The notes beneath the pieces are model-generated. The model saw only the letters and a list, made by a program, of their open reading frames with translations. It was not told the origin of the DNA and did no database searches. A stretch of DNA of 64,000 bases from Candidatus Babeliales bacterium (GTDB lineage: Bacteria; Babelota; Babeliae; Babelales; JACPOV01), in the NCBI GenBank assembly GCA_020054235.1, contig JAGVLQ010000004.1, positions 60,652 to 124,651 of the forward strand, in the 5' to 3' direction. Position numbers and translations under genes: made by a program. Of the stretch, positions 7,316 to 42,822 are shown in pieces; within the stretch, counting starts at the first letter, position 1, and each line of letters opens with the position of its first letter.

Positions 7316-7936
7316 ATGAAAAAAATATTTATTCTCTTTTTTATTTTTGGATCATTAAGCTCAAAAGCTATGGAGAGAAAACCTATTGTAGGTTATCTTG
7401 CTCTTAATATGAAAAAACGACCGGAAATTGCTGGATACCCTGAAAATTCTTGTTTGGCACAATACTCGCCCAAACATAAAATTCAAAATTCACTTAACCT
7501 AAAGGTATCTGCCGAAGAACTCCTTTTTCCTATAATAGCATGGCCAGAAAAAGAGCAATCATATAAAAATCCCCCGGCTCGTGAAATACTGCAAAGCTAT
7601 CCCGAACATTTAGATTTTGAAACACTAAAAAATTTAAAGGATGGAGAAAAAATACAACTTGTTTTTTCTGAATATACGTTTATTTTAACCGCTCGACAAA
7701 CAAAAGACCAAGAAGACCCTAACAAAATTCTTTTTGAGGAAGCACTGCGACAGCAAATAAAAAAAGCATTAGAAGGCTCTTTTGATTATTGCACTGAAAA
7801 AAAAGAACTAACCATGTTAATTGATGCAAAAATTTTAGAACAACAAAAAAAAAAACACACCGCTGGTTTTGAATATCATCCCCTAACAGCAAAAGTTAGA
7901 AAAAAATATGAAGAATTTCTTAACAATAAACAATAA
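7316..7936 (+). CDS. Secreted protein, member 1 of a six-paralog tandem family (novel domain)
   Basis: Signal peptide, then the family motifs VGYLALN, PEIAGYPE, YPEHLDFETLKNLKDGEKIQLV, TFILTARQ, LFEEALRQQIKKALEG and YHPLTAKVRKKYEEFL. Confidence 0.7.
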   Translation: MKKIFILFFIFGSLSSKAMERKPIVGYLALNMKKRPEIAGYPENSCLAQYSPKHKIQNSLNLKVSAEELLFPIIAWPEKEQSYKNPPAREILQSYPEHLDFETLKNLKDGEKIQLVFSEYTFILTARQTKDQEDPNKILFEEALRQQIKKALEGSFDYCTEKKELTMLIDAKILEQQKKKHTAGFEYHPLTAKVRKKYEEFLNNKQ

Positions 7937-8597
7937 AATCAAAAAAATAATAATTATTCTAGGTATCTTTTTGAGTATAATTAACCTCAAAGCTGGCGGT
8001 TCTTTTTCAAAAAATAGCTCGATTAATAAAGAAAAAAAAACACACTTTGAAGGTTTAATTACCCTTGACACTCAAACATGGCCTAGGCTGGTCGGTCTTC
8101 AAAAGCCATCCCAATCAACTTTTCTTGAACCAACAACCCTCTTACCTTTAAACAATAAAAAAGAGCTAACGCCCGATTCACTTCTCTTACCAATTAAAGC
8201 ATGGACACCAGAAATTGAATCGGAACTTCAAGACCTTTTTTTTCATACAAATCAACTCGAAGGAAAAATAATACCACAATACTTTGATCTTGAAACTCTG
8301 ATATATCTAATGAAAAAAAAGACTTTATCTTTTACTCTTGGAGAAAGAACCTTCACCTTAACAATTCCGCAACAACCCGAATCGGAAATATCATTTAAAA
8401 AAACATTAGATGATCAACTTAAAAAAGCATTAACTGGTTATTTAAGTTATATAACTGCTGAAAAAGAAACGCTTATTGAAAAAGGAATTTTAGAAAATGA
8501 ATCATCTGAAAATGCAGATTTTTCATACCATCCTTTAACCAAAAAATATCGTTTGCTTTTAGAAACTTTTTTAGAAGAAATAAAAAAAAATGAATAA
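7908..8597 (+). CDS. Secreted protein, member 2 of the six-paralog family
   Basis: Hydrophobic N-terminus, then SLLLPIKAWTPE, YFDLETLIYL, TFTLTIPQQ, SFKKTLDDQLKKALTG, LIEKGILE and YHPLTKKYRLLLETFLEE. The ATG overlaps member 1 by 29 nt, so the start is uncertain. Confidence 0.6.
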   Translation: MKNFLTINNKIKKIIIILGIFLSIINLKAGGSFSKNSSINKEKKTHFEGLITLDTQTWPRLVGLQKPSQSTFLEPTTLLPLNNKKELTPDSLLLPIKAWTPEIESELQDLFFHTNQLEGKIIPQYFDLETLIYLMKKKTLSFTLGERTFTLTIPQQPESEISFKKTLDDQLKKALTGYLSYITAEKETLIEKGILENESSENADFSYHPLTKKYRLLLETFLEEIKKNE

Positions 8598-8639
8598 CAT
8601 AAGAAGTTCCTCTGCTGAAAAGAGAAGGAATAAGTATAC

Positions 8640-9713
8640 ATGCTTACAATTCTGCTTTTTTTGATGATATCTTCTTTTGTTAATTCTTTTGCCATGGAAC
8701 AACGCAATTTATTACACTTTAATGATTTGATTGCATATTACCAAAAACATCCAACTCACCATGAACTAAAGGATGCATTTGATCTCTATAATAACGAATC
8801 AACAAAATTTGAGGGTCTACAAAAAATTCAAGCTCTCGCCACAGCAGAAAATCCACATCCACTAGCACAATATGTTATGGGAACCATACGATTAAAAGAA
8901 AATAAAACATTAAGTGCAATTGCCTATTTTTCAAAATGTAACCATCCTTTAGCCAAAATGGCATTGTTTCAACGCTATCAAGACCTAAATCAAAAAGATA
9001 AAGCCTTTCAAATTTTGCAAGAAAACTGTGTTTGTGAAATTCCTTATATTGTTAATTATACTCAAACTCTAAAATTCTATTTTCATCAACCAGCTCTTGA
9101 TGCCTTATATAATTTAGCACAAGAAGGGAACTTAGCTGCAAGAACTAAACTCCAAGAATTACAGGAAAAAAAAAGAGAGCAGATTGTTTTTAGCGGCGAT
9201 CTTTTCTTGATTCCAGATACCACAGCAAAGCTCTTAAATGAGCACCCTTACTTCAAAAATTTAAACCCAGACGATTTGTTTTTTAAGGTTGCTATAAAAA
9301 ATATCAGCTCTTCAGACCCAAAGGAATTTTATAAGCCTGACTTTTTTCAAACTCCTGAGTATATACCATTTTCTCTGCTCAAAAACCTTGAAGAAAATGA
9401 TCAATTTTGCTTAAAATTTGCAGGCATCAAATGGGTTCTTACTGCAAGTCAAAAAAAATCAGGGTATATCGGCAACAGAGATTTTGGGCAAGTAAAAAAA
9501 CTTCTTATTGAAAAAGTATTTAACTTTGGACCAGATTATAAAAAAGAAGATGAAGAATTTCTAATGAAAAATACTGTAATAGAAAAAGGACACGTGAAAC
9601 ACCCTTTTTTTTATCCTATTCAGGACACTCTTATTAAAGGTTTTGTTTTAACAAAAAAAGTCGAAGAAAAATATAGACTATATTTAGAATCAAAAGATGA
9701 CAATCGACAATAG
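8640..9713 (+). CDS. Secreted Sel1/TPR-like repeat protein fused to the six-paralog family domain (member 3)
   Basis: Signal peptide. The N-terminal half has Sel1-like helical repeats (HPLAQYVMGTIRL...AIAYFSKCNHPLAKMALFQRY). The C-terminal half carries the family motifs DDLFFKVAIKN, YIPFSLLKNLEENDQFCLKF, KWVLTASQ and LTKKVEEKYRLYLE. Confidence 0.6.
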   Translation: MLTILLFLMISSFVNSFAMEQRNLLHFNDLIAYYQKHPTHHELKDAFDLYNNESTKFEGLQKIQALATAENPHPLAQYVMGTIRLKENKTLSAIAYFSKCNHPLAKMALFQRYQDLNQKDKAFQILQENCVCEIPYIVNYTQTLKFYFHQPALDALYNLAQEGNLAARTKLQELQEKKREQIVFSGDLFLIPDTTAKLLNEHPYFKNLNPDDLFFKVAIKNISSSDPKEFYKPDFFQTPEYIPFSLLKNLEENDQFCLKFAGIKWVLTASQKKSGYIGNRDFGQVKKLLIEKVFNFGPDYKKEDEEFLMKNTVIEKGHVKHPFFYPIQDTLIKGFVLTKKVEEKYRLYLESKDDNRQ

Positions 9714-9721
9714 GAGTATTA

Positions 9722-10303
9722 ATGAAAAAAATTATGTTACTCAGCATCTTTATTCCATTTGTTATCAATGCTGCGGAAAAACAAGAACAGAGCGTATATA
9801 AAGGAACACTCGTCTTAGAAAATCAGATTCCTTTTCTTTTTGGCACTGGCAATGCATTTGGCAACAAAGACAGTTTAGCAAAATTAGGGTTTAAGCACCT
9901 GAAAGCGGATGAACTTCTTTTTAATGTAACAGTCAGAAATGAAAATGACGAAGCTGAATTCTCCAGAAGACCACATACCTATCCTTACTCAATATTTCCA
10001 GGTTTTTTGCCATTTTCTATGATCAAAGATCTCCAAGAAGGTGATCAACTGTGTGTAGCGCTATCCGGCTTTAAATGGTGCTTAACAGCTCAAAAAATGA
10101 ATTTCTATCAAGAATTAAATTTTGAAGAAGCACGCAAAAACTGTCTTCTTGAGGCATTACAAAAAGGAGTACTCTATAATGAGAACGATAAAGAATTTTT
10201 AATTGCGATGAAAATTATAGAAACAATACAAAACTCCGAAAGACCCATGGCGATGTTAACCAATCAAGTCAAAACAGATTATAAGAATTTTCTAGAAAAT
10301 TAA
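9722..10303 (+). CDS. Secreted protein, member 4 of the six-paralog family
   Basis: Signal peptide, then DELLFNVTVRN, FLPFSMIKDLQEGDQLCVAL, KWCLTAQK, NFEEARKNCLLEALQKG and LTNQVKTDYKNFLE. Closest to member 3. Confidence 0.65.
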   Translation: MKKIMLLSIFIPFVINAAEKQEQSVYKGTLVLENQIPFLFGTGNAFGNKDSLAKLGFKHLKADELLFNVTVRNENDEAEFSRRPHTYPYSIFPGFLPFSMIKDLQEGDQLCVALSGFKWCLTAQKMNFYQELNFEEARKNCLLEALQKGVLYNENDKEFLIAMKIIETIQNSERPMAMLTNQVKTDYKNFLEN

Positions 10304-10316
10304 TAAAGGAAATTGC

Positions 10317-10961
10317 ATGAAAAAAATACTTTCTACCATCTTTTTTTTTGTTGCACTTTCAGCACCTGCTTCTGAAAATAAAAAAGAAATCATTACCGGT
10401 TACATAGCTTTAAATACCGAAAACGATCCAGCGCTTGGCGAATATCGAGACGATAAAAATTCTTTTGATCCTATAATTATTCTTGAAGAATATTTCGATG
10501 AAAAATTACCACCGGAGACTCTTTTACTTTCCGTATTAGTATGGAATGAGGAACATTCACTTACAACATTCAACATTGGTTATCCTCAGAGTATTAAATA
10601 CCTTTTTCCAACGCGTCTTAATTTTGATCGGTTGAAAACATTAAAAGAAGGGAATCTCCTCGATGTTACAGATGCATCTGGCAGGAGATTTTTATTAAAA
10701 GCAACGCAACAAATAAAAAACTCTAACATTTCTTTTGAACAAGCATTGAGAAATCAAGTCAAAAGAGCCTTACATGGAGAGCTCAAAATAATTCACGATA
10801 CAGAATTAATTAAAGATGGCATACTTGAGCCAAGTTCTGGTTCTTGGGTTGAAGTGGATCCTGTGGTAAGAAGATGGGAAAGGAATCCTAAAGGGTGTAC
10901 ATTAACTGAAAAATATAGAAAGCCGCTTGAAAAATTTTTAGAAAATAGTGATCAACAATAA
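10317..10961 (+). CDS. Secreted protein, member 5 of the six-paralog family
   Basis: Signal peptide, then ITGYIALN, PETLLLSVLVWNEE, LNFDRLKTLKEGNLLDV, RFLLKATQQ, SFEQALRNQVKRALHG, LIKDGILE and LTEKYRKPLEKFLE. Confidence 0.7.
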   Translation: MKKILSTIFFFVALSAPASENKKEIITGYIALNTENDPALGEYRDDKNSFDPIIILEEYFDEKLPPETLLLSVLVWNEEHSLTTFNIGYPQSIKYLFPTRLNFDRLKTLKEGNLLDVTDASGRRFLLKATQQIKNSNISFEQALRNQVKRALHGELKIIHDTELIKDGILEPSSGSWVEVDPVVRRWERNPKGCTLTEKYRKPLEKFLENSDQQ

Positions 10962-10979
10962 AAACTAAAAGGAGTTTTT

Positions 10980-11615
10980 ATGAAAAAAATATTTTTTATT
11001 ATCACACTTTTAACTACAGTCGGTGCACAGGCTGGAGGTTGGCTTTCAAAAGAAAAAGAAACACCGCCACCACCTAAAACAATTACGGGATTTATCGCAT
11101 TAATACCCAACAAATGGCCAGAACTTGCTGGCTATCCTGAACTGTGTATAACTCCTTATATGACCACAACAAGAAAATTAGAAGAAGCCTTCAAGAAAAA
11201 ATTATCGCCAGAAACATTGCTATTGCCCGTTGCAACATGGAATGAAGAACAACCTGAAGGCTTCAGTGCCAGAAAAATTGGCGTACGATTTCCGGAACAC
11301 TTGGATTTTGAAATGCTCAAAAATATTAAAGAAAATGATGAATTAAAGGTGCAAATTTCTACGATTACTTTTCTTTTAACAGCAAAGCAAACAACAGAAA
11401 ATTCTCAAGTTCGCTTTGAAGATGTTCTTAAAAATCAAATTGAAAAAGCTTTAAAAGGTCATCTAATCTATGATGTTGGTAAAGAGAAAGAAGAATTAAT
11501 TAAGAATGGCATTTTGGAAAAAGAAAAAATTAAAGACCCAATGTATAGTTCTCTACACCTTTTAACTGAAAAACATCGAAAACCACTTGAGCAATTTTTA
11601 GAAGAACAAAAATAA
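10980..11615 (+). CDS. Secreted protein, member 6 of the six-paralog family
   Basis: RBS aaaggag; signal peptide ending AQA. Motifs ITGFIAL, PELAGYPE, PETLLLPVATWNEE, FPEHLDFEMLKNIKENDELKV, TFLLTAKQ, RFEDVLKNQIEKALKG, LIKNGILE and LTEKHRKPLEQFLE. Confidence 0.7.
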   Translation: MKKIFFIITLLTTVGAQAGGWLSKEKETPPPPKTITGFIALIPNKWPELAGYPELCITPYMTTTRKLEEAFKKKLSPETLLLPVATWNEEQPEGFSARKIGVRFPEHLDFEMLKNIKENDELKVQISTITFLLTAKQTTENSQVRFEDVLKNQIEKALKGHLIYDVGKEKEELIKNGILEKEKIKDPMYSSLHLLTEKHRKPLEQFLEEQK

Positions 11616-11763: not shown

Positions 11764-13227
11764 ATGTCAAAATATTCTGTACAAGCAATAATACTTGCTG
11801 CTGGCAAATCTAAACGATTCAATACGGGAAATTCAAAATTATTAGAAAAATTATGTGGCCAAGAACTTATTCTATATCCTGCACGATTATTAGAAACAAT
11901 AAATATTCCAAGTACATTTGTGCTCAATTATCAAGCTGATGAAATTAAAAAAGTTTTACAAGCAACGAGCATAAAAGCATCTTTTGTTTTACAACCAGAA
12001 CCAAAAGGAACTGGTGATGCTCTTGCACATACACAAAAAACATGGCACCAAAATAATATTCTTGTCATGAACGGCGATATGCCGCTTGTTACTGAAGAAA
12101 TTATTATACAGCTTATTGAAAAACACTTACAAACCAATGCTACCGTCAGCTTTGTAACCGCACACCATCCAAACCCTTCGATAACTGATTATGGAAGAGT
12201 AATTGCACAAGATAATACTTTTAGAATTATAGAAGCAAAAGATTTGCAAGAGCAACACGAATCTTGTTGCATTAATGCAGGCATCTATCTTTTCAAAAGA
12301 GAATTTTTATTGGAACATATTACAACCCTGACAAATCACAACGCAGCACAAGAATTTTATATTACCGATTTAATTAAAATTGCCAGCGACAAAAAACTCA
12401 CTATTGAAACAATTAGTGCGCCATTTGATCATATTCGCGGCGTTAATACACTCAAAGAATTTTGGACGGCCGAACAAATTAAACGCTCTGAGCTTATTTC
12501 TTTATGGATGGAGCGCGGTGTACGTTTTGATGTCGCACAATCAGTTCATCTTGATATGAATATTGTTATTGGCGCAGGAACACGCATTGGTGCTGGCGTA
12601 CATATTTTACAAGGAACAACTATTGGCAACAATTGCACTATTGAACCATTTAGCATCATAAAAAATAGTACGCTCGGTAATGATTGTCATGTTTTTTCAC
12701 ATTCTATTATTTCCGATTCATTCATTGAGCAAGAATGCAAAGTTGGACCATTTGCTCATATAAAAGATAAATCATATTTAAAGCATAATGCAGTTATTGG
12801 TAATTTTGTTGAAGTCTGCCGAACAACCATCGGCACGCAAAGTAAAGCAAAACATCTTTCTTATTTAGGCGATACAGAAATTGGCAAAAAAGTAAATATT
12901 GGAGCAGGTACGATTACCTGTAATTATGATGGCAAAATAAAACATACCACTATAATTGAAGATGAAGTATTTATTGGCAGCAATAACACTCTGGTAGCAC
13001 CTATAACAATAGAAAAAAAATCCTATACCGCTGCTGGCTCAACAATTACAAATGACGTACCAACAGAAAGTCTCGCTTTAGGCCGCGCTCGACAAGTTAA
13101 TAAAGAAGGTTACGCAAAAAAATTTACTAAAAAAGAAGATAAAGCAAATCCAGAAAAAAAAAATAAACACAAAGATTCAGGATTTTTTGGCGCTATTAAA
13201 ACACACAACGATTTACTCGAGCAATAA
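11764..13227 (+). CDS. glmU: Bifunctional UDP-GlcNAc pyrophosphorylase / GlcN-1-P acetyltransferase
   Basis: Nucleotidyltransferase motif AIILAAGKSKRF plus C-terminal hexapeptide-repeat beta-helix (IGAGTRIGAGVHI, NIGAGTITCNYDG). Start placed at the ATG behind aaggaga. The C-terminal tail is lysine-rich. Confidence 0.88.
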   Translation: MSKYSVQAIILAAGKSKRFNTGNSKLLEKLCGQELILYPARLLETINIPSTFVLNYQADEIKKVLQATSIKASFVLQPEPKGTGDALAHTQKTWHQNNILVMNGDMPLVTEEIIIQLIEKHLQTNATVSFVTAHHPNPSITDYGRVIAQDNTFRIIEAKDLQEQHESCCINAGIYLFKREFLLEHITTLTNHNAAQEFYITDLIKIASDKKLTIETISAPFDHIRGVNTLKEFWTAEQIKRSELISLWMERGVRFDVAQSVHLDMNIVIGAGTRIGAGVHILQGTTIGNNCTIEPFSIIKNSTLGNDCHVFSHSIISDSFIEQECKVGPFAHIKDKSYLKHNAVIGNFVEVCRTTIGTQSKAKHLSYLGDTEIGKKVNIGAGTITCNYDGKIKHTTIIEDEVFIGSNNTLVAPITIEKKSYTAAGSTITNDVPTESLALGRARQVNKEGYAKKFTKKEDKANPEKKNKHKDSGFFGAIKTHNDLLEQ

Positions 13228-14462
13228 TGATTTCATTTATACATACAGCCGACATTCACTATGGCATGGAAAATTATGGCAGAATTGATCCTGCAACTGG
13301 CATTCACACCCGTCTGCTTGATTTTGATAAAGCGTTTAATTTTGCCATTGATTATGCACTAGAAAAAGAAGTTGATTTTTTTATCATCGCTGGTGATGCT
13401 TACAAAACTACCAACCCAAGCCCAACACAACAGCGCTTGTTATTACGCGCATTGTTACGCTTACATGAAGCAAAAATTCCAGCAGTAATCGCCGTTGGCA
13501 ACCATGATAATCCTTTGAGTTTTGGCAAAGCAAATTCGCTTGAAATTTTTGGCGATTTGCCACTTGATGGTTTTCATGTAATCAGCAAACCAACAGCATT
13601 CACTTTGCAAACAAAAAATGGCCCGGTGCAAATTGTTGGCATGCCCTGGCCAACGCGCAATACTATTGCAATATCAAATAATCATATGTTTAAATCTGCC
13701 TTTGAATTGACCGAATATATTTCCAAATCTGCAAATGCGATTATTCAACATTTAGCAGAAAATTTAGACCCTGCTTTACCGGCAGTTTTGACAGGGCATT
13801 TAACCGTCAGCTCGGGCATTTTTTCTGGCTCTGAAAAGCGAGCTATTTATGGCAATGATCCGGTATTTTTACCTTCACAATTGGCAATACAACCGTTTGA
13901 TTATGTTGCCCTTGGGCATTTACACCGATTTCAAGATTTAAATAAAAATGGTTATCCGCCAGTTGTCTATTCTGGTTCTATTGAACGTATTGACTTTGGC
14001 GAACGCAAAGAGGATAAAGGTTTTTGCCATGTCAGGGTTCAGGCAAAAAATAAAACAACGTATGAATTTATTAAAACGCCCCAACGACCTTTTATTCAAA
14101 TTGAAGTCAATTTAAAATCAAATGAACCTCAAACAACACAGATTATTGAGGTCGTTAAGGACTACAATCTAACCGATGCAATTGTAAAATTATTATACTT
14201 TCTTCCAGAAGATGCTCCCGATACGGTAGATTTAGCTGCCGTGCAACGAGCATGCTCAATGGCACACGATATTGTCGGTATTATTCCGGTGCATCACCAA
14301 AAGCGCCGACAACAACGCACTGCCATGAAAATTGACATGAGCTTAGAAAATTTATTAGAAACTTATTTTGAAACTAAACCTGAATTCAATTCAAGAAAAC
14401 AAGACTTAATTGAAAAGGCACTTAGATTACAAGAAGACGTTGCACAAGTTAGCGGGGAATAG
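13227..14462 (+). CDS. sbcD: SbcD/Mre11-family nuclease
   Basis: Calcineurin-like phosphoesterase motifs FIHTADIHYG, IIAGDAYK, VGNHDN and ALGHLH. The ATG overlaps the glmU stop (TAATG). Confidence 0.8.
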   Translation: MISFIHTADIHYGMENYGRIDPATGIHTRLLDFDKAFNFAIDYALEKEVDFFIIAGDAYKTTNPSPTQQRLLLRALLRLHEAKIPAVIAVGNHDNPLSFGKANSLEIFGDLPLDGFHVISKPTAFTLQTKNGPVQIVGMPWPTRNTIAISNNHMFKSAFELTEYISKSANAIIQHLAENLDPALPAVLTGHLTVSSGIFSGSEKRAIYGNDPVFLPSQLAIQPFDYVALGHLHRFQDLNKNGYPPVVYSGSIERIDFGERKEDKGFCHVRVQAKNKTTYEFIKTPQRPFIQIEVNLKSNEPQTTQIIEVVKDYNLTDAIVKLLYFLPEDAPDTVDLAAVQRACSMAHDIVGIIPVHHQKRRQQRTAMKIDMSLENLLETYFETKPEFNSRKQDLIEKALRLQEDVAQVSGE

Positions 14463-14465
14463 ATT

Positions 14466-15239
14466 TTACTCTTCTTCCTTGGTGTTTTCTAACAGCTGGA
14501 TATTTCTCTTGAAAAAATTTTGTTGCTCTTGCATCTCATGCAAATTAATACCAAGTTCTCTCCCTTGTAGATATGAATCCATGCCCACCTTTTTTATTGC
14601 TTGAAGTTCAAATTCATCTTCAACTTCATTCTTTACTTGATTAAAAAGATTTTCATCATCTAAATATTTTGCATTATTTTGCCTATACTCTTCTGACATC
14701 ATTTGTTTAGAAATTTTCTGTGCATCTTCAAAATTCCAATTTAATACTCTTGAAATAGCAGCAAAAATTTTGTCAGAATCATTACTACGATAAATAAAAA
14801 ACAGCTCCTGCAATAAATAGTAAAGATTTTCGTTTAAAAATGTAGGATCATTTTCATACAAAATTGGTACAAATCGATAACGCCCTAAAAGAAAAAGCAA
14901 TTGATAAAAATCAAGAATCCGTTGATCTTTTTTCCTGTTTGCACCATGGCGAATTAAAAGGTCTGCTAACTCTAGGTTATCTCTAAAAAGCGCATAATAA
15001 AGTGGAGTTCCGTAATATGCAGATTTAAAAGTTTTATTGTCATTATACTTAACAAAATAATATTTTTTTTCAAAATCGACAGCACCTTGTTTACAAAGCT
15101 CTTTTATTTTTTCAAAATTTAATGTACCTAAAGCCTCCACAATCTCATTTTCTAATTTTATCTCTTTTGAAAGTTGTTTTGAGTCCATAGAATATGCAGC
15201 AGTTGATAATAACCCAAAAATGAGTAGGCTCTTTTTCAT
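14466..15239 (-). CDS. Ankyrin-repeat protein with signal peptide (paralog A of three)
   Basis: Signal peptide MKKSLLIFGLLSTAAYS and the ANK-like unit GTPLYYALFRDNLELADLLIRHGANR. The conserved C-terminal module is GMDSYLQGRELGINLHEMQEQQNFFKRNIQLLENTKEEE. Confidence 0.7.
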   Translation of the reverse strand: MKKSLLIFGLLSTAAYSMDSKQLSKEIKLENEIVEALGTLNFEKIKELCKQGAVDFEKKYYFVKYNDNKTFKSAYYGTPLYYALFRDNLELADLLIRHGANRKKDQRILDFYQLLFLLGRYRFVPILYENDPTFLNENLYYLLQELFFIYRSNDSDKIFAAISRVLNWNFEDAQKISKQMMSEEYRQNNAKYLDDENLFNQVKNEVEDEFELQAIKKVGMDSYLQGRELGINLHEMQEQQNFFKRNIQLLENTKEEE

Positions 15240-16042
15240 TCTTCTTCTTCCTTGGTATTTTCTAACAGCTGGATATTCCGTTTTAAAAAATTTTGCTGTT
15301 CTTGCATCTCATGCAAGCTGATACCAAGCTCTCTGCCTTGCAGATATGAATGTATACCTACTTTTTGGATATCTTTTAAATTTTTAAGTTTAAATTCTTT
15401 TGCTACTTGATCCATTGTTTCATTAAGCAGATTTTCATTTTCTAAAATTTCTACTGCTTTTTGGGCAGAATCACGAAATAGGCTCCAGCCACTTTTGGCA
15501 TATTCTAAAGGAGTGAGCTTATTAAACTGAAGATTACTCTGAGAACCATTATCAAAATGAGCTTTCTGCTTTGCATAATCGGGAAAAAACAATAAAATTC
15601 CAGCAATAAGTTTATGACTATTTTCTGGTACATGAGTATCAACTGCTCGATGCAATAAATTTCCACCAAATAGCCTATCCCCACCATTAGAATGATATTT
15701 GTAAAGAATTGGCAAAAATTGATAATGCCCCCAGCAACAAAGCTCTTGGTAGGCTAGCGTATCAGGCTCAGCACCATAACCAACTAAAAGCTCCCCTAAT
15801 TCTAGGTTATTTATATAAAGTGCAAAATCAAAGGGTGTTTTGGACATGCCGCATTCATGTGATGGAAATTTATAGATAATGCTAAACTCTTTCTTAAAAT
15901 TTATTGCACCCTTTTTGCAAAGCTCTTCAATTTTTACAAAGTCTAACTTGGCGAATGCGTGCGAAATTTCTCTTTCTTCTTGATCCATAGAATAAATTAT
16001 TGTTGTTGCAAGCAAACTAAAAATTAATAACCACTTTTTCAT
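15236..16042 (-). CDS. Ankyrin-repeat protein with signal peptide (paralog B of three)
   Basis: ANK-like units KTPFDFALYINNLELGELLVGYGAEPD, GNLLHRAVD and LTPLEYAKSG. C-terminal module GIHSYLQGRELGISLHEMQEQQNFLKRNIQLLENTKEEEE. ATGA overlap with paralog A. Confidence 0.7.
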   Translation of the reverse strand: MKKWLLIFSLLATTIIYSMDQEEREISHAFAKLDFVKIEELCKKGAINFKKEFSIIYKFPSHECGMSKTPFDFALYINNLELGELLVGYGAEPDTLAYQELCCWGHYQFLPILYKYHSNGGDRLFGGNLLHRAVDTHVPENSHKLIAGILLFFPDYAKQKAHFDNGSQSNLQFNKLTPLEYAKSGWSLFRDSAQKAVEILENENLLNETMDQVAKEFKLKNLKDIQKVGIHSYLQGRELGISLHEMQEQQNFLKRNIQLLENTKEEEE

Positions 16043-16908
16043 TCCTTTTCTTCCTTGGAATTTAGTTGATTATTCCTTTGTAAAAAATACTTTTGCTCAT
16101 ACATCTCTCCAACAGACATACCAATTTCTCTACCTATACTAAATAGATCAATTCCTAGAGTATTTTGTAGTATTTCCAGTTTTTCTTTAGCCTTCTCCAC
16201 CGTAAATTCACCTTCAACCTTTTCTATCTTGTCCATAAGCAGTTTTGTATCATTCAAAATTTCAAAAGCTTTTTGAGCGATCAATGTCTCATTCTGTTTT
16301 TGCTGTGCATATTCAAGAGGAATAAGTTGTTCTTTAAAATTTTTTTCATCAAGCATCTGCTTGCCAAACAGTAAAATACATGCTGCAATCATTTCTTGTA
16401 CGGTATTTTCATTACAAGAATCAACTGCAATATGCAAAAGATTTTCACCAATATGATTTTCATATTTGAGTCCATACTCCAAAAAAATTGGTAAAAATTT
16501 ATAACGCCCATATTGAATTACTTTATAAAAAAGTTTTAAATCTTGAAAGTTGGGGTCAGCACCATAGCGACATAGAACTTTGGCAAGATGAGGATTGTCA
16601 ATATCGATAGCAAATTCCAATGGGGAAACGGTAAAATTTCGTATACGACACGTTAAATTCTCTGGATCTTCTATTTTTACAAACAGATCTAGAGGACTAT
16701 TAAGATTTATTGTATTGTTTGAACAAAAGGCACAAACATCCTTTATGGTGCCTTCAACTAAAACCTGCTCAAACTTTTGAACTGAGCTTTGCATTGCATG
16801 CAAAAAAGAAAAGAAAATTAGAAAAAAACCTAAGCTTGTTTTTATACAAATAGAGAGGCTATATCTACAAATTCTGAGAAATACATAAATAAAATTAACG
16901 GTGCTCAT
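16039..16908 (-). CDS. Ankyrin-repeat protein (paralog C of three)
   Basis: ANK-like units VSPLEFAIDIDNPHLAKVLCRYGADPN, GENLLHIAVD and LIPLEYAQQK. The C-terminal module is diverged: GIDLFSIGREIGMSVGEMYEQKYFLQRNNQLNSKEEKE. Four-base overlap with paralog B. Confidence 0.65.
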   Translation of the reverse strand: MSTVNFIYVFLRICRYSLSICIKTSLGFFLIFFSFLHAMQSSVQKFEQVLVEGTIKDVCAFCSNNTINLNSPLDLFVKIEDPENLTCRIRNFTVSPLEFAIDIDNPHLAKVLCRYGADPNFQDLKLFYKVIQYGRYKFLPIFLEYGLKYENHIGENLLHIAVDSCNENTVQEMIAACILLFGKQMLDEKNFKEQLIPLEYAQQKQNETLIAQKAFEILNDTKLLMDKIEKVEGEFTVEKAKEKLEILQNTLGIDLFSIGREIGMSVGEMYEQKYFLQRNNQLNSKEEKE

Positions 16909-16920
16909 TATAATTTTTGA

Positions 16921-17865
16921 TTAAATATGAACAATCGTTGCATTATCAAACAGTGATTTTTGGTGCTTTTGATACGTCGTTTCAAATTTTGGCTTACGTA
17001 AAGTCTCAACAATATCACGATAACGTTTTTTCAATGAAACTAAGCGTTTTGGTTTTTTATTTTCCAGTTGATAGAGCTGAAAACCACCAACAACTTTTTG
17101 GCGCTTTATTTCGCCTTTTTCCATCTTAGGAATAAAATCAAGATTTTCCGCTAAATCTGATTCCAACAACCATGAAGGCTCACTCCAAGCTACATCAATA
17201 CCAGAACCGTTTTGAATATAACGCTCAATATCTTTTTCTATGCCCCGTGATTTTTGGCCTTTTTCTCGGTCTACTGAAACAAATGCCATTTTGAGTTTGT
17301 ATTTTGGCTCTTTTTCTATTGGGTTTGCATTGTAATAGGCAATCACTTCATCCTCACAGACCATAATCTTTTGCTTGATAAAATACTCAGTCAGCATGTT
17401 GTTGGCATACATAAGACGAAATTTATCAAAGCCTTCAGTATAACTATAACCTTCTTGAGCAAAAATGGTTGTTTCATCTCCCGGTTTTAAACCAAAACTT
17501 TGAACGGTACGTGTCAGGTGCTCTTTGACCATAGTATCATCCATAGGTGCATTCATTTCTTTTACTTTTTGGTAACCAAGTTCTTCGGCTATATTATCTT
17601 GCAAAGAGCGTTGGCGCCCGTCGATACCACGGCGCTGTTGGTCAGACTGACAAAAAATTTGAGAACGAACTGGCCCATGGACTAAAGCCACCATTTTGTC
17701 TTGGAGTTTTCGCCTTTGCTTGTTTTCTGGAATAGAATTAGAAACCGTTTTGGTTTCTCCCTCTTTTGTCTCTTTTTTTATAGAGTTTTTGAAAGATTTG
17801 GTACTACTTTTAGCATGAATACCTGTAAAACACATAAAAATAGCGATTATATATAAACTTCTCAT
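16921..17865 (-). CDS. Periplasmic SurA-like chaperone candidate
   Basis: 314-aa ORF with a signal peptide and a helical SurA-N/PpiD-like layout. It sits next to a parvulin-like lipoprotein gene. I saw no clear PPIase catalytic motif, so the call is tentative. Confidence 0.35.
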   Translation of the reverse strand: MRSLYIIAIFMCFTGIHAKSSTKSFKNSIKKETKEGETKTVSNSIPENKQRRKLQDKMVALVHGPVRSQIFCQSDQQRRGIDGRQRSLQDNIAEELGYQKVKEMNAPMDDTMVKEHLTRTVQSFGLKPGDETTIFAQEGYSYTEGFDKFRLMYANNMLTEYFIKQKIMVCEDEVIAYYNANPIEKEPKYKLKMAFVSVDREKGQKSRGIEKDIERYIQNGSGIDVAWSEPSWLLESDLAENLDFIPKMEKGEIKRQKVVGGFQLYQLENKKPKRLVSLKKRYRDIVETLRKPKFETTYQKHQKSLFDNATIVHI

Positions 17866-35696: not shown

Positions 35697-36371
35697 ATGA
35701 AAAAAAAAATTTTATTAAGTATTATTTTTGTAACCTATCTACAAGCAGATAACACTCTTTTAAAAAAACAATTAGAAAAAAAAACAATAGAAAATCCTGA
35801 AAAAAAACATTTCGTTGAAAAAAAAGCTCAATTTGAAAAAATCAAACAGCAAGAAATTACCGCTCTCAAAAAAAAAGAAAAACCCTTAGAAAAAAAATTA
35901 CAAGAAAAAAAAATTGCTCTTCAAACTGAAAAAAAAGATCAGTTTTTAAATCAAGTATCAGTAGCTGCAAAAGAAGATGCTAAAGAATTTAATGCAGCCC
36001 AACGCTCATTTATTATAAAAAATAACATCACCGAAGCTACCATTACCTATGATAAGCACTGGGCAAAACCTTTCCCAACTACCTTTAGTGCAAAAGTAAA
36101 CGATCAGGAATATCTCACCCTTCAAAAAGGAAAATTGCAACTTCATAACACCAAAATTTCTGGAATGCATAATAAAATAAAGGTAAGTTATGAATGGGCA
36201 ATAAAATATTTGGGGAAAGTTAGACATCACGAGCATAAACTCTTAGAATTTGAAGTTCCCGAAAAACAAGAAGAACTTACTATTTCTTTTTGCTGGGATG
36301 ATGAAAATCGCATTATTATACCAAATGCAAAATTGATAAACTCCTCAACCATTACTCCGAGTAATATATGA
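35697..36371 (+). CDS. Hypothetical lysine-rich secreted protein
   Basis: Start placed at MKKKILLSIIFVTYLQA (signal peptide). The N-terminal third is K/E-rich and encoded by many A7-A10 runs. The C-terminal half has more ordinary composition. Confidence 0.5.
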   Translation: MKKKILLSIIFVTYLQADNTLLKKQLEKKTIENPEKKHFVEKKAQFEKIKQQEITALKKKEKPLEKKLQEKKIALQTEKKDQFLNQVSVAAKEDAKEFNAAQRSFIIKNNITEATITYDKHWAKPFPTTFSAKVNDQEYLTLQKGKLQLHNTKISGMHNKIKVSYEWAIKYLGKVRHHEHKLLEFEVPEKQEELTISFCWDDENRIIIPNAKLINSSTITPSNI

Positions 36372-42360: not shown

Positions 42361-42822
42361 ATGAAGCATTCATTCCTTTTGAATGTTCTTTTTCTTTTTT
42401 TTTCTCTACCAATTTTTACCGCAACCAGAAATTCTAATCTAGAATCATCATCAAAACAAAAAAATACGCTTTTTTTTAGGGATAGGTCAGAGCAAATATC
42501 TTCCACAAGCAACAACGTAACCTCTGATCCCTTTGAAGAAGACACTAAAACAGACATTGCACTCTTTAATCATTTTATAAAAATTCTAGCAAATTTTGGC
42601 CATATTTTACTTGACCCTCATAATCCGGCGAATGTAACCTTAAATGCAGCAAAAATGATTGATGGTGTAGTAGCTGTTGCTCAAGAATTAACTAAAAGAG
42701 GCAATCCTACCGACAAACAAATGCGAAAAATGGTTCGCTTAATCTTATTAGCCTTGCAGAGACAAGGTTTCTTACCTTCAAAACCGAATACCATTACAAG
42801 TTTTGACTATAGCATGTCTTGA
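42361..42822 (+). CDS. Hypothetical secreted protein
   Basis: Start placed at the ATG behind aaaggag; signal peptide MKHSFLLNVLFLFFSLPIFTA. No family recognised. Four-base overlap with the next gene. Confidence 0.5.
   Translation: MKHSFLLNVLFLFFSLPIFTATRNSNLESSSKQKNTLFFRDRSEQISSTSNNVTSDPFEEDTKTDIALFNHFIKILANFGHILLDPHNPANVTLNAAKMIDGVVAVAQELTKRGNPTDKQMRKMVRLILLALQRQGFLPSKPNTITSFDYSMS

What the first reader, a model, noticed from the sequence alone, without database searches (positions are those of the whole stretch)
14466..16908. Three translationally coupled ankyrin-repeat paralogs with a homogenised C-terminal module
Seen in sequence:
- Three minus-strand genes overlap by 4 nt. The 15236-15239 junction is verified as ATGA; the junction near 16039-16042 also overlaps by 4 nt.
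- Paralogs A and B have a clear signal peptide. Paralog C has a longer hydrophobic N-terminal region.
- Each has ANK-like units (e.g. GTPLYYALFRDNLELADLLIRHGANR).
- The last 38 aa or so are nearly identical in A and B: G[MI][DH]SYLQGRELGI[NS]LHEMQEQQNF[FL]KRNIQLLENTKEEE. The module is recognisable but diverged in C.
- At nucleotide level, about 115 nt at the 3' ends (14466-14585 versus 15236-15355) are far more similar than the rest of the genes.

Inference: gene conversion or strong purifying selection acts on a C-terminal module. An acidic, glutamate-rich C-terminus could be a secretion or targeting signal or a shared interaction helix. Ankyrin repeats are classic eukaryote-like effector domains (established knowledge).
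Basis: partly seen in the sequence, partly recalled or inferred. Interest (0 to 1): 0.6.

Follow-up and report, generated by a model that had tools for sequence, protein, structure and literature searches.

The report
Tandem exported ankyrin paralogs, conserved tail
Three back-to-back genes of a Dependentiae (TM6) bacterium encode small signal-peptide-bearing ankyrin-repeat proteins whose last ~40 residues are held almost identical in two copies by protein-level selection, not by recent DNA copying; this is an ordinary kind of gene for the phylum, with one mildly interesting evolutionary twist.

Summary
Three minus-strand genes (A 14466-15239, B 15236-16042, C 16039-16908) overlap by ATGA. All carry Sec-type signal peptides and a degenerate ankyrin core, followed by a C-terminal helical extension with no Pfam or PDB-sequence match.

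The last 39 codons of A and B are 85% identical in DNA, against 57% for the rest, and 35 of 39 residues match. However, 13 of the 17 differences are synonymous (pS 0.61 against 0.56 elsewhere; dN/dS about 0.03). Recent gene conversion is therefore excluded.

The module's history still disagrees with the gene body. B's body groups with its ortholog in a related contig (L006), while B's module groups with A (Fisher p = 8e-11, breakpoint p = 2e-4). Either an old A/B recombination was followed by long purifying selection, or the constraint shifted in one lineage.

The genome belongs to Candidatus Babeliales. Signal-peptide ankyrin proteins and tandem duplications are typical there, and type II is the only secretion system reported. 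The module occurs in no other protein, so it is not a general secretion signal. The 'KEEE' tail encodes AAGGA, the Shine-Dalgarno sequence of the next paralog.

Only six family members were found. Verdict: a new member of a known kind, of low to moderate interest.

The parts
14466..15239 (-). Paralog A (257 aa). It is the last gene of the array. It has a signal peptide and a degenerate ankyrin core lacking one repeat (a 17-aa gap relative to B and C), followed by the C-terminal extension.
   Evidence: Ank E = 0.0024, residues 76-101. The middle region evolves fast (pN 0.63 against pS 0.51). The module downstream is under strong constraint, so the gene is translated to its end.
15236..16042 (-). 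Paralog B (268 aa). It has a signal peptide, about 4-5 degenerate ankyrin repeats and the C-terminal extension.
   Evidence: AF2 model has pLDDT 71 and is all-helical. The ortholog P0126 in L006 is 59% identical over the body.
16039..16908 (-). Paralog C (289 aa from ATG 16908). It is the most canonical ankyrin member and is closest to the single-copy gene of L007.
   Evidence: Ank_2 30.1 bits exceeds the gathering score of 27.3. AF2 pLDDT is 80.5 with the ankyrin core above 90. The Foldseek top 50 are all ankyrin/DARPin structures. C is 34% identical to P0128, against 28% to B.
14469..14585 (-). C-terminal module of A (39 codons): GMDSYLQGRELGINLHEMQEQQNFFKRNIQLLENTKEEE.
   Evidence: 35/39 residues match B. 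There are 13 synonymous and 4 non-synonymous differences. It is predicted as helix-turn-helix at low confidence.
15239..15358 (-). C-terminal module of B (40 codons): GIHSYLQGRELGISLHEMQEQQNFLKRNIQLLENTKEEEE.
   Evidence: It is only 43% identical to the module of B's own ortholog in L006.
16042..16155 (-). C-terminal module of C (38 codons): GIDLFSIGREIGMSVGEMYEQKYFLQRNNQLNSKEEKE.
   Evidence: It is 50-56% identical to the modules of A and B, against 23-28% identity in the body. tblastn E = 6e-8 to 6e-9.
14594..14609 (-). Approximate 5' boundary in A where the phylogenetic signal switches. Upstream, B groups with L006; downstream, A groups with B.
   Evidence: Maximum chi-square breakpoint at alignment columns 274-279, permutation p = 2e-4.
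15376..15391 (-). The same boundary in B.
15236..15253 (-). B/A junction. AAGGA (15249-15253) lies within B's KEEEE codons, 9 nt upstream of A's ATG, and is followed by the ATGA stop/start overlap (15236-15239).
   Evidence: The spacing matches other genes in the window, which carry AGGA at -9 to -14. The Lys codon used is the rare AAG (12% of Lys codons).
16039..16056 (-). C/B junction. AAGGA (16052-16056) lies within C's KEEKE codons and is followed by the ATGA overlap (16039-16042).
15189..15239 (-). Signal peptide of A (17 aa, predicted cleavage AYS|MD).
   Evidence: Sequence and hydropathy. The architecture is conserved in all six family members.
15989..16042 (-). Signal peptide of B (18 aa, predicted cleavage IYS|MD).
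16795..16908 (-). N-terminus of C. A 22-aa extension is followed by a signal-peptide-like segment (predicted cleavage LHA|MQ). The start codon is uncertain.
16921..17865 (-). Upstream PpiC/SurA-like gene, 12 nt from C. It is the last conserved gene of the PheT-LspA-PgpA-ComF-SurA-SurA cluster to which the ankyrin array is appended.
   Evidence: weak Rotamase_2 match. Synteny is seen in L006, L007, L010, L011 and L013.
13227..14462 (+). Convergent SbcD gene ending 3 nt from A's stop codon. It was used as the anchor for taxonomy and synteny.
   Evidence: The best hits are named Candidatus Babeliales or Dependentiae.

Best explanation
**What it is.** The three genes are a lineage-specific, tandemly triplicated family of small Sec-exported ankyrin-repeat proteins in a Candidatus Babeliales (Dependentiae/TM6) bacterium. 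They are appended to the 3' end of a conserved envelope-biogenesis gene cluster.

**Architecture.** Each protein has a signal peptide, about 4-5 degenerate ankyrin repeats, and a ~75-aa helical extension ending in a ~40-aa helix-turn-helix module with a GRE[LIV]G turn.

**Expression.** The genes are probably co-transcribed and translationally coupled. Each ATGA overlap is preceded by AAGGA, encoded by the Lys-Glu-Glu tail of the upstream paralog. The acidic tail therefore doubles as the next gene's ribosome-binding site.

**Why A and B match at the 3' end.** Strong purifying selection on the protein sequence keeps the modules alike (dN/dS about 0.03, with synonymous sites near saturation). Recent DNA homogenisation is not the cause. 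The module's ancestry differs from that of the gene body. The most likely reason is an old recombination or gene conversion between the neighbouring copies A and B, after which the module was frozen.

**Inferred function (not shown).** The module is a shared docking or oligomerisation element common to the paralogs. The fast-evolving ankyrin surfaces diversify for different targets. The proteins are exported by Sec and probably released by the type II system, or retained in the periplasm.
For: **Shown**
- ORFs, overlaps and Shine-Dalgarno spacing.
- Signal peptides conserved in all six family members.
- Ankyrin homology.
- Babeliales origin and conserved synteny, with the ankyrin gene absent from more distant relatives.
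- Nei-Gojobori for A-B: module pS 0.63 / pN 0.041; body pS 0.57 / pN 0.385.
- Fraction of codons that differ at identical-residue sites: 0.34 in the module, 0.35 in the body, 0.36-0.44 for window-L006 orthologs, about 0.5 at saturation.
- Discordance in site patterns: body B=L006 61, A=B 12, A=L006 17; module A=B 19, B=L006 1, A=L006 0. Fisher p = 8e-11.
- A single sharp breakpoint, permutation p = 2e-4.
- B-L006 module pN (0.40) exceeds B-L006 body pN (0.24) and equals A-L006 module pN (0.42). This is expected if B carries an A-type module.
- A and B are identical at five sites where C, L006, L007 and L009 mostly all differ from one another.
- The module is found in no other protein: and DNA scans 10, 17, 73.
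- The C-terminal extension is shared with a canonical-ankyrin relative in L009 (BLASTP E = 1e-5).

**From the literature**
- 79 of 126 Babela ankyrin proteins and 78% of the 98 Chromulinavorax ankyrin proteins carry signal peptides.
- Type II is the only secretion system detected, and tandem duplications are common (PMC4378268, PMC6561590, PMC4776705).
Against: - Synonymous sites are near saturation in every comparison, so an old conversion cannot be dated. It also cannot be separated from a module-specific acceleration in the L006 lineage.
- Relative-rate counts hint at such an acceleration. With outgroup C the module counts are 9:1, and with L007 they are 4:0. With L009 they are 3:4.
- Both scenarios still need a rate shift in the module.
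- AF2 confidence for the module is low (pLDDT 48-75), so the helix-turn-helix is only a prediction.
- No partner, oligomeric state, localisation or expression data exist.
- Promoter and terminator scans were uninformative: 49 sites found against 43 expected, and 12 against 8.5.
- Signal peptides were judged by inspection and hydropathy, not by a trained predictor.
- Only six family members are known, so the trees rest on few taxa. Paralog A is a long branch.
Confidence: 0.55

Rival explanations
1. No recombination took place. The A/B duplication is older than the window-L006 split. The module has been frozen in both A and B ever since. The single-copy ortholog in L006 lost the constraint and let its module drift quickly, for example because its partner paralogs were lost.
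For: - Synonymous divergence of the A-B module is as high as that between orthologs.
- Relative-rate counts in the module put most changes on the L006 branch: 9:1 with C as outgroup and 4:0 with L007.
- This one assumption also explains why C's module is closer to A and B (50-56%) than to L006 (35%).
Against: - It needs roughly a 7-fold acceleration in the L006 module (19/39 against 12/183 sites). It also needs a slowdown on the B branch (0/39 against 17/183).
- With L009 as outgroup no acceleration is seen (3:4).
- A and B share states at sites that are hypervariable in every other lineage. At two polarisable sites (V289, Q308) A and B share a state that differs from the one common to L006 and the outgroups.
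Confidence: 0.35
2. Recent or ongoing gene conversion homogenises the 3' ends of A and B at the DNA level.
For: The module is 85% identical in nucleotides against 57% elsewhere. The genes are adjacent and in the same orientation.
Against: - 13 of the 17 differences are synonymous. They include a two-step AGA/CGG arginine change.
- pS is 0.61-0.63 in the module against 0.56-0.57 in the body.
- Codon identity at conserved residues is the same inside and outside the module.
- The longest identical run is about 20 nt.
Confidence: 0.02
3. The acidic C-terminal module is a secretion or translocation signal, for example one resembling the glutamate-rich 'E-block' C-terminal signal of type IVB effectors.
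For: The tail is glutamate-rich and the module sits at the extreme C-terminus. Ankyrin effectors of Legionella and Coxiella use C-terminal signals (established knowledge; Pan et al. 2008, as cited in PMC6561590).
Against: - The proteins have cleavable Sec signal peptides.
- No other protein carries the module.
- The module is not conserved in orthologs: L006 has net charge +3 over the compared 25-27-residue C-terminal stretch, against -3/-4 in A and B, and L007 lacks the tail.
- Published Dependentiae genomes report only Sec and type II secretion (PMC4378268, PMC4776705).
- The KEEE codons are explained by the Shine-Dalgarno sequence.
Confidence: 0.05
4. The conservation acts on the nucleotide sequence: a ribosome-binding or coupling element, an RNA structure, or an antisense gene overlapping the module.
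For: The last ~15 nt of B and C do contain the Shine-Dalgarno sequence and start codon of the next gene. Antisense ORFs exist at 14410-14604 and 15252-15410.
Against: - Synonymous positions vary freely across the whole module.
- A's module is followed by no gene, yet it is equally conserved.
- The antisense ORFs are simply mirror images of the conserved coding sequence.
- This explains at most the last five codons.
Confidence: 0.03
5. The proteins are not host-directed effectors. They are periplasmic ankyrin proteins with a housekeeping or self-protection role, working with the neighbouring SurA/PpiC-like chaperones.
For: - They carry signal peptides.
- They are tightly packed at the end of an envelope cluster of LspA, PgpA and two PpiC/SurA-like genes, with only a 12-nt gap.
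- Periplasmic ankyrin proteins are known, such as Bdellovibrio Bd3460 (Lambert et al. 2015, cited in PMC6561590). Pseudomonas AnkB is another example, recalled from my own knowledge.
Against: - The gene is absent from most relatives that have the same cluster (L010, L011, L013).
- The slot holds unrelated insertions in others (L012, L014).
- Copy number varies from 0 to 3 and the ankyrin surfaces evolve fast (body dN/dS 0.26-0.76). This pattern is typical of accessory, host-facing genes.
Confidence: 0.2

Closest known systems
Signal-peptide-bearing ankyrin-repeat proteins of Dependentiae (Babela massiliensis, 126 copies; Chromulinavorax destructans, 98 copies)
   Same: They come from the same phylum and order. 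They share an N-terminal Sec signal peptide plus ankyrin repeats, frequent tandem duplication and islands, and presumed export through Sec and type II secretion (PMC4378268, PMC6561590).
   Different: This subfamily has strongly degenerate repeats: A and B fall below the Pfam thresholds. It also has a private ~75-aa C-terminal helical extension with no Pfam or PDB-sequence match. Only six members were found in 5.8 billion protein clusters. It sits at one fixed, syntenic slot.
Dot/Icm (type IVB) ankyrin effectors of Legionella and Coxiella, with glutamate-rich C-terminal signals
   Same: Both are ankyrin repeats in an intracellular bacterium of protists, with a Glu-rich extreme C-terminus.
   Different: Those effectors lack Sec signal peptides, and their C-terminal signal is shared across hundreds of unrelated effectors. 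Here a signal peptide is present, the module is family-private, and no type IV system is reported for the phylum (PMC4378268).
Periplasmic bacterial ankyrin proteins (Bdellovibrio Bd3460 self-protection protein; Pseudomonas aeruginosa AnkB)
   Same: They are small Sec-exported ankyrin proteins encoded next to envelope or periplasmic functions.
   Different: No sequence relationship beyond the ankyrin repeat was found. No cognate enzyme gene lies nearby. Copy number is variable and the gene is absent from close relatives.
Mosaic or concerted evolution of tandem paralogs by gene conversion or unequal crossing-over
   Same: The copies are adjacent and same-sense. A sharp breakpoint separates a region where paralogs group together from a region where orthologs group together.
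   Different: Classical conversion tracts show reduced synonymous divergence. Here synonymous sites in the tract are as diverged as elsewhere. Any event is therefore ancient, and the present similarity is maintained by selection.
Translational coupling through ATGA stop/start overlaps
   Same: There is a 4-nt overlap with a Shine-Dalgarno sequence inside the upstream coding sequence at typical spacing. Two other ATGA overlaps occur in the window, at 36368-36371 and 42819-42822.
   Different: Here the Shine-Dalgarno sequence is embedded in a conserved Lys-Glu-Glu tail that is repeated in each paralog. It is also retained, without a downstream gene, in the last copy.

Membership tests
Ankyrin repeat proteins (Pfam Ank clan: PF12796, PF00023, PF13606) | Sequence match to ankyrin-repeat profiles at the curated threshold | tested here: met
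   Met for C (Ank_2 30.1 > 27.3; Ank_3 25.1 > 22.3) and for relative P0128. A (18.5 bits) and B (13.5 bits) are below threshold on their own. The family profile hits ankyrin proteins at E down to 1e-39 through positions 55-154.
Ankyrin repeat proteins (Pfam Ank clan: PF12796, PF00023, PF13606) | Stacked helix-turn-helix repeat fold | tested here: met
   The AF2 model of C has pLDDT 80.5 with the core above 90. The Foldseek PDB top 50 are all ankyrin/DARPin structures (probability 1.00, target TM-score about 0.6-0.67), although E-values are only 4e-3 to 2e-2. The B model is weaker.
Sec (type I) signal peptide | Positively charged n-region, 10-15-residue hydrophobic core, and small residues at -3/-1 | tested here: met
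   MKK + hydrophobic core + (A/I)YS|M in A and B, and LHA|M in C. The same layout occurs in L006, L007 and L009. This was judged by inspection and hydropathy only; no trained predictor was available.
Dependentiae secreted ankyrin effectors | Encoded in a Dependentiae/Babeliales genome | tested here: met
   SbcD neighbours are 65-88% identical to proteins that NCBI names Candidatus Babeliales or Dependentiae. Synteny is conserved.
Dependentiae secreted ankyrin effectors | Delivery into, and action in, the eukaryotic host | not testable with these tools
   This is only inferred from the literature on Babela and Chromulinavorax (PMC4378268, PMC6561590).
Gene-conversion tract between paralogs | Phylogeny of the tract discordant with flanking sequence, with a defined breakpoint | tested here: met
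   Fisher p = 8e-11. Maximum chi-square breakpoint permutation p = 2e-4.
Gene-conversion tract between paralogs | Synonymous divergence lower within the tract than in the flanks | tested here: not met
   pS is 0.61-0.63 in the module and 0.56-0.57 in the body. Codon differences at identical residues are 0.34 against 0.35.
C-terminal secretion signal (type IVB E-block or type I) | Signal shared by many unrelated substrates of the same organism | tested here: not met
   No other protein carries the module in 5.8 billion clusters, which include this genome's own proteins. It is also absent from the other ORFs of the window.
C-terminal secretion signal (type IVB E-block or type I) | Substrates lack an N-terminal Sec signal peptide, and a cognate secretion machine is present | tested here: not met
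   A signal peptide is present. The machinery cannot be checked in a 64-kb window. The literature reports only type II secretion in the phylum (PMC4378268).
Translationally coupled gene pair | Stop/start overlap with a Shine-Dalgarno sequence in the upstream coding sequence at functional spacing | tested here: met
   ATGA is present at both junctions. AAGGA lies 9 nt upstream of each ATG, within the -9 to -14 range of other genes in the window.
Translationally coupled gene pair | Downstream translation depends on upstream translation | not testable with these tools
   This needs reporter fusions with premature stop codons.

The most novel reading that the evidence does not exclude
The C-terminal helix-turn-helix is a paralog-pairing element. 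The three translationally coupled proteins would assemble through it into a defined hetero-oligomer that presents three different ankyrin surfaces. The module would then co-evolve within each genome. That would explain why it is nearly identical between paralogs of one genome yet diverges freely in relatives with a single copy. It would be an example of concerted evolution driven by selection on an assembly interface rather than by DNA homogenisation.
Probability: 0.12. Interest if true: 0.5.

Novelty: new member of a known kind. Interest (0 to 1): 0.25.

Why it matters
Dependentiae devote a large share of their small genomes to signal-peptide ankyrin proteins, and none of these has a known function. 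This locus gives a small, clean case: 0, 1 or 3 copies at one syntenic slot in related genomes. It shows how such families grow by tandem duplication and which part is actually constrained. That part is a private C-terminal module, not the ankyrin surfaces.

There is also a methodological lesson. A paralog segment with much higher DNA identity looked like gene conversion. Counting synonymous and non-synonymous changes shows that it is protein-level selection, possibly acting on an ancient recombinant.

If the module proved to be an assembly or docking element, it would be a handle for finding partners of these effectors. Otherwise the finding is ordinary for the phylum.

Tried and rejected
- **Recent gene conversion.** Rejected on synonymous-site counts.
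- **Module as a general signal.**
  - The word-indexed search of 5.8 billion clusters with two profiles returned only the family itself.
  - The exhaustive hmmsearch of 1.84 billion representatives added only P0126 and P0128 as full-length relatives. All other hits were generic ankyrin matches confined to the repeat region.
  - tblastn of the three modules against the window found nothing else.
  - DNA-pattern scans of GTDB genomes, JGI metagenomes and IMG/VR found nothing.
- **Known domain for the C-terminal extension.** Pfam on the full proteins and on the isolated extension, and a PDB sequence-profile search, gave only sub-threshold noise: Sec7 E = 0.022, MazG-like E = 0.05, a dehydratase E = 0.6.
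- **Rfam on the window.** No hits.
- **Promoter and terminator scan.** Not above shuffled expectation.
- **Finding the source genome.** Exact look-ups of A and B found no contig on record. GTDB scans did not find the species. Taxonomy was instead obtained from SbcD homologs.
- **Post-split origin of A.** I considered that A arose as a duplicate of B after the window-L006 split and then diverged fast. Body site patterns give no excess of A=B over A=L006 (12 against 17), so this is not supported. Long-branch effects cannot be excluded.


Full report
**Observation**

The region holds three consecutive minus-strand ORFs: A 14466-15239 (257 aa), B 15236-16042 (268 aa) and C 16039-16908 (289 aa). 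The sequence shows ...GAA TGA overlapping ATG AAA at both junctions, so both 4-nt ATGA overlaps are real.

A and B begin with MKK, a 13-14-residue hydrophobic core and a small-residue cleavage motif (AYS|MD, IYS|MD). C has the equivalent segment (KTSLGFFLIFFSFLHA|MQ) preceded by 22 extra residues. In C the codon aligned with the ATG of A and B is ATA. NCBI and JGI call different starts, 289 and 251 aa.

The three proteins are clear paralogs, with tblastn E-values of 1e-15 to 1e-45.

**Ankyrin content**

Pfam gives a threshold-passing ankyrin match only for C (Ank_2 30.1 bits; gathering score 27.3). A and B are sub-threshold.

Three other lines support an ankyrin core for the whole family:
- An exhaustive profile search hits thousands of ankyrin proteins through profile positions ~55-154. 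Sampled hits were confirmed as ankyrin proteins.
- The AF2 model of C has pLDDT 80.5, with the core above 90.
- Its Foldseek matches to the PDB are exclusively ankyrin/DARPin structures.

The family is therefore a degenerate ankyrin family of about 4-5 repeats. A has lost one repeat.

**Organism and locus**

The window is a bacterial chromosome segment of about 34% GC. It carries pheT, mnmG, rpoD, tkt, zwf and glmU. The adjacent SbcD protein has its best hits (65-88% identity) in proteins that NCBI names Candidatus Babeliales or Dependentiae.

Contigs carrying those SbcD homologs show a conserved arrangement. GlmU and SbcD are convergent with a minus-strand cluster of PheT, LspA, PgpA, ComF-like and two PpiC/SurA-like genes.

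| Locus | Content of the slot between SbcD and the SurA-like gene |
|---|---|
| L010, L011, L013 | nothing |
| L007 / L008 | one C-like family member (P0128) |
| L006 | one B-like member (P0126) plus an unrelated 136-aa ORF |
| L009 | a frameshifted gene with canonical ankyrin repeats and a related C-terminal extension (BLASTP E = 1e-5 against C) |
| L012, L014 | unrelated genes |

The ankyrin gene is therefore a lineage-specific addition to the 3' end of a conserved envelope cluster. It has been triplicated only in the window genome.

Only these six members were found. The searches covered 5.8 billion protein clusters and 1.84 billion representatives, plus GTDB, JGI-metagenome and IMG/VR DNA scans.

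**The C-terminal module**

A and B share 35 of 39 residues at the end. C shares 50-56% with them. Outside the module, the mature proteins are 33% (A-B) and 23-28% (A-C, B-C) identical.

At DNA level the A-B module has 17 differences in 117 nt (85.5% identity), against about 57% identity elsewhere.

**Conversion or selection?**

Thirteen of the 17 differences are synonymous. They include a two-step AGA/CGG arginine change.

| Comparison (Nei-Gojobori) | pS | pN | dN/dS |
|---|---|---|---|
| A-B module | 0.63 | 0.041 | 0.03 |
| A-B body | 0.57 | 0.385 | 0.51 |

The fraction of identical residues encoded by different codons tells the same story:

| Comparison | Fraction of codons that differ |
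|---|---|
| A-B module | 0.34 |
| A-B body | 0.35 |
| B-L006 body | 0.36 |
| Housekeeping orthologs, window against L006 | 0.40-0.44 |
| Expected at saturation | about 0.5 |

The module is as old in synonymous terms as the rest of the gene, and about as old as the split from the nearest genome. Recent or ongoing homogenisation is excluded. The amino-acid sequence is being held by strong purifying selection. This also shows that A, whose middle region evolves very fast, is translated to its end.

**Discordant history**

Purifying selection alone does not explain everything. Site patterns for A, B and L006 differ sharply between the two regions:

| Region | B=L006 (A differs) | A=B (L006 differs) | A=L006 (B differs) |
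|---|---|---|---|
| Body | 61 | 12 | 17 |
| Module | 1 | 19 | 0 |

- In the body, B and L006 are clear orthologs and A lies outside them.
- In the module the pattern is reversed (Fisher p = 8e-11).
- A maximum chi-square scan places one sharp switch at alignment columns 274-279. This is roughly window 14594-14609 in A and 15376-15391 in B (permutation p = 2e-4).
- Between B and its ortholog the module is more diverged (pN 0.40) than the body (pN 0.24). It is as diverged as the A-L006 module (pN 0.42). This is what is expected if B carries an A-type module.
- A and B are also identical at five sites where C, L006, L007 and L009 mostly all differ from one another.

The rival reading is that L006's module sped up after that lineage was reduced to a single copy. 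Relative-rate counts are 9:1 with C as outgroup, 4:0 with L007 and 3:4 with L009, so they are suggestive but not decisive.

Synonymous sites are saturated throughout, so the two scenarios cannot be separated with the available genomes. Both need a rate shift in the module. I favour an old recombination between the neighbouring copies followed by long purifying selection (about 0.55), over a pure rate shift (about 0.35).

**The acidic tail and coupling**

The tails read ACC AAG GAA GAA GAA GAA TGA in B, TCC AAG GAA GAA AAG GAA TGA in C, and ACC AAG GAA GAA GAG TAA in A. AAGGA lies 9 nt upstream of the next gene's ATG. That is the same spacing as AAGGA/AGGAG motifs before many other genes in the window.

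Lys is encoded by the rare AAG (94 AAG against 692 AAA in window genes) in all three tails. The single-copy L006 gene ends AAA AAA GAA GAA TAG and has its own upstream AAGGAG.

Part of the 'glutamate-rich C-terminus' is therefore the ribosome-binding site for the next paralog. This fits translational coupling, which is inferred and not shown. A retains the motif although nothing follows it, which fits its 3' end having come from an internal array member.

**Function**

The C-terminal extension has no Pfam or PDB-sequence relative. It is predicted helical, ending in a helix-turn-helix around an invariant Arg and Gly (R-x-x-G, typically GRE[LIV]G), but at low confidence (pLDDT 48-75).

It is not a general secretion signal:
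- The proteins have Sec signal peptides.
- No other protein carries the module.
- The module is not conserved in orthologs.
- Type II is the only secretion system reported in published Dependentiae genomes (PMC4378268, PMC4776705).

Signal-peptide ankyrin proteins are the norm in this phylum: 79 of 126 in Babela and 78% of 98 in Chromulinavorax. They are presumed host-directed (PMC4378268, PMC6561590).

I therefore read these as ordinary Dependentiae exported ankyrin proteins. The private C-terminal module most likely serves as a shared docking or oligomerisation element, while the ankyrin surfaces diversify. This is inference. A periplasmic role linked to the neighbouring chaperone genes remains possible (about 0.2).

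**Verdict**

- Selection: yes.
- Recent conversion: no.
- Ancient recombination: plausible.
- Secretion signal: unsupported.

This is a new small subfamily of a well-known kind of gene, of low to moderate interest.

Noticed in passing
window 7316-11615 (+): There are six tandem paralogs of 193-357 aa (pairwise BLASTP E = 1e-6 to 1e-36). Each starts with a signal-peptide-like segment and ends with a shared motif resembling LT.K.R..LE.FLE. This is a second tandem exported family with a conserved C-terminal end. Similar small genes sit upstream of GlmU in L007 and L011.
   Followed up: partly
window 14462-16921; loci L006, L007, L009-L014: The slot between the convergent SbcD gene and the SurA-like gene is an insertion hotspot among Babeliales. 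It holds 0, 1 or 3 ankyrin-family genes, a canonical-ankyrin gene, a 357-aa unknown gene, or a GDPD gene, depending on the genome.
   Followed up: partly
window 16795-16908 (-): The start of gene C is uncertain. The codon aligned with the ATG of A and B is ATA. No Shine-Dalgarno-like motif precedes either the upstream ATG at 16908 or the ATA codon; the JGI start at M39 was judged by eye only. NCBI and JGI annotate different starts, 289 and 251 aa.
   Followed up: partly
window 14410-14604 (+) and 15252-15410 (+): Two antisense ORFs (64 and 52 aa) have similar sequences. They are mirror images of the conserved C-terminal modules rather than independent genes.
   Followed up: yes
L009 2930-3764 (-): The canonical-ankyrin relative is split by a frameshift into 99-aa and 189-aa ORFs. 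It is either a pseudogene or an assembly error in a Logan contig.
   Followed up: partly
L006 4467-4877 (-): An unrelated 136-aa ORF with a signal peptide occupies the position where the window genome has paralog C.
   Followed up: no
window 14640-14880 (-), middle of paralog A: A lacks one ankyrin repeat (a 17-aa gap). The following ~60 codons have pN 0.63 against pS 0.51 when compared with B. This indicates relaxed or positive selection in the repeat region, next to a strongly constrained tail.
   Followed up: partly
whole window: Neither this genome nor a same-species representative was found in the GTDB r232 representative set, by module patterns or by GlmU 8-mers. The exact proteins are also absent from the gene-position index, although they are in the NCBI/JGI protein collection on a 159,394-bp contig.
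   Followed up: no
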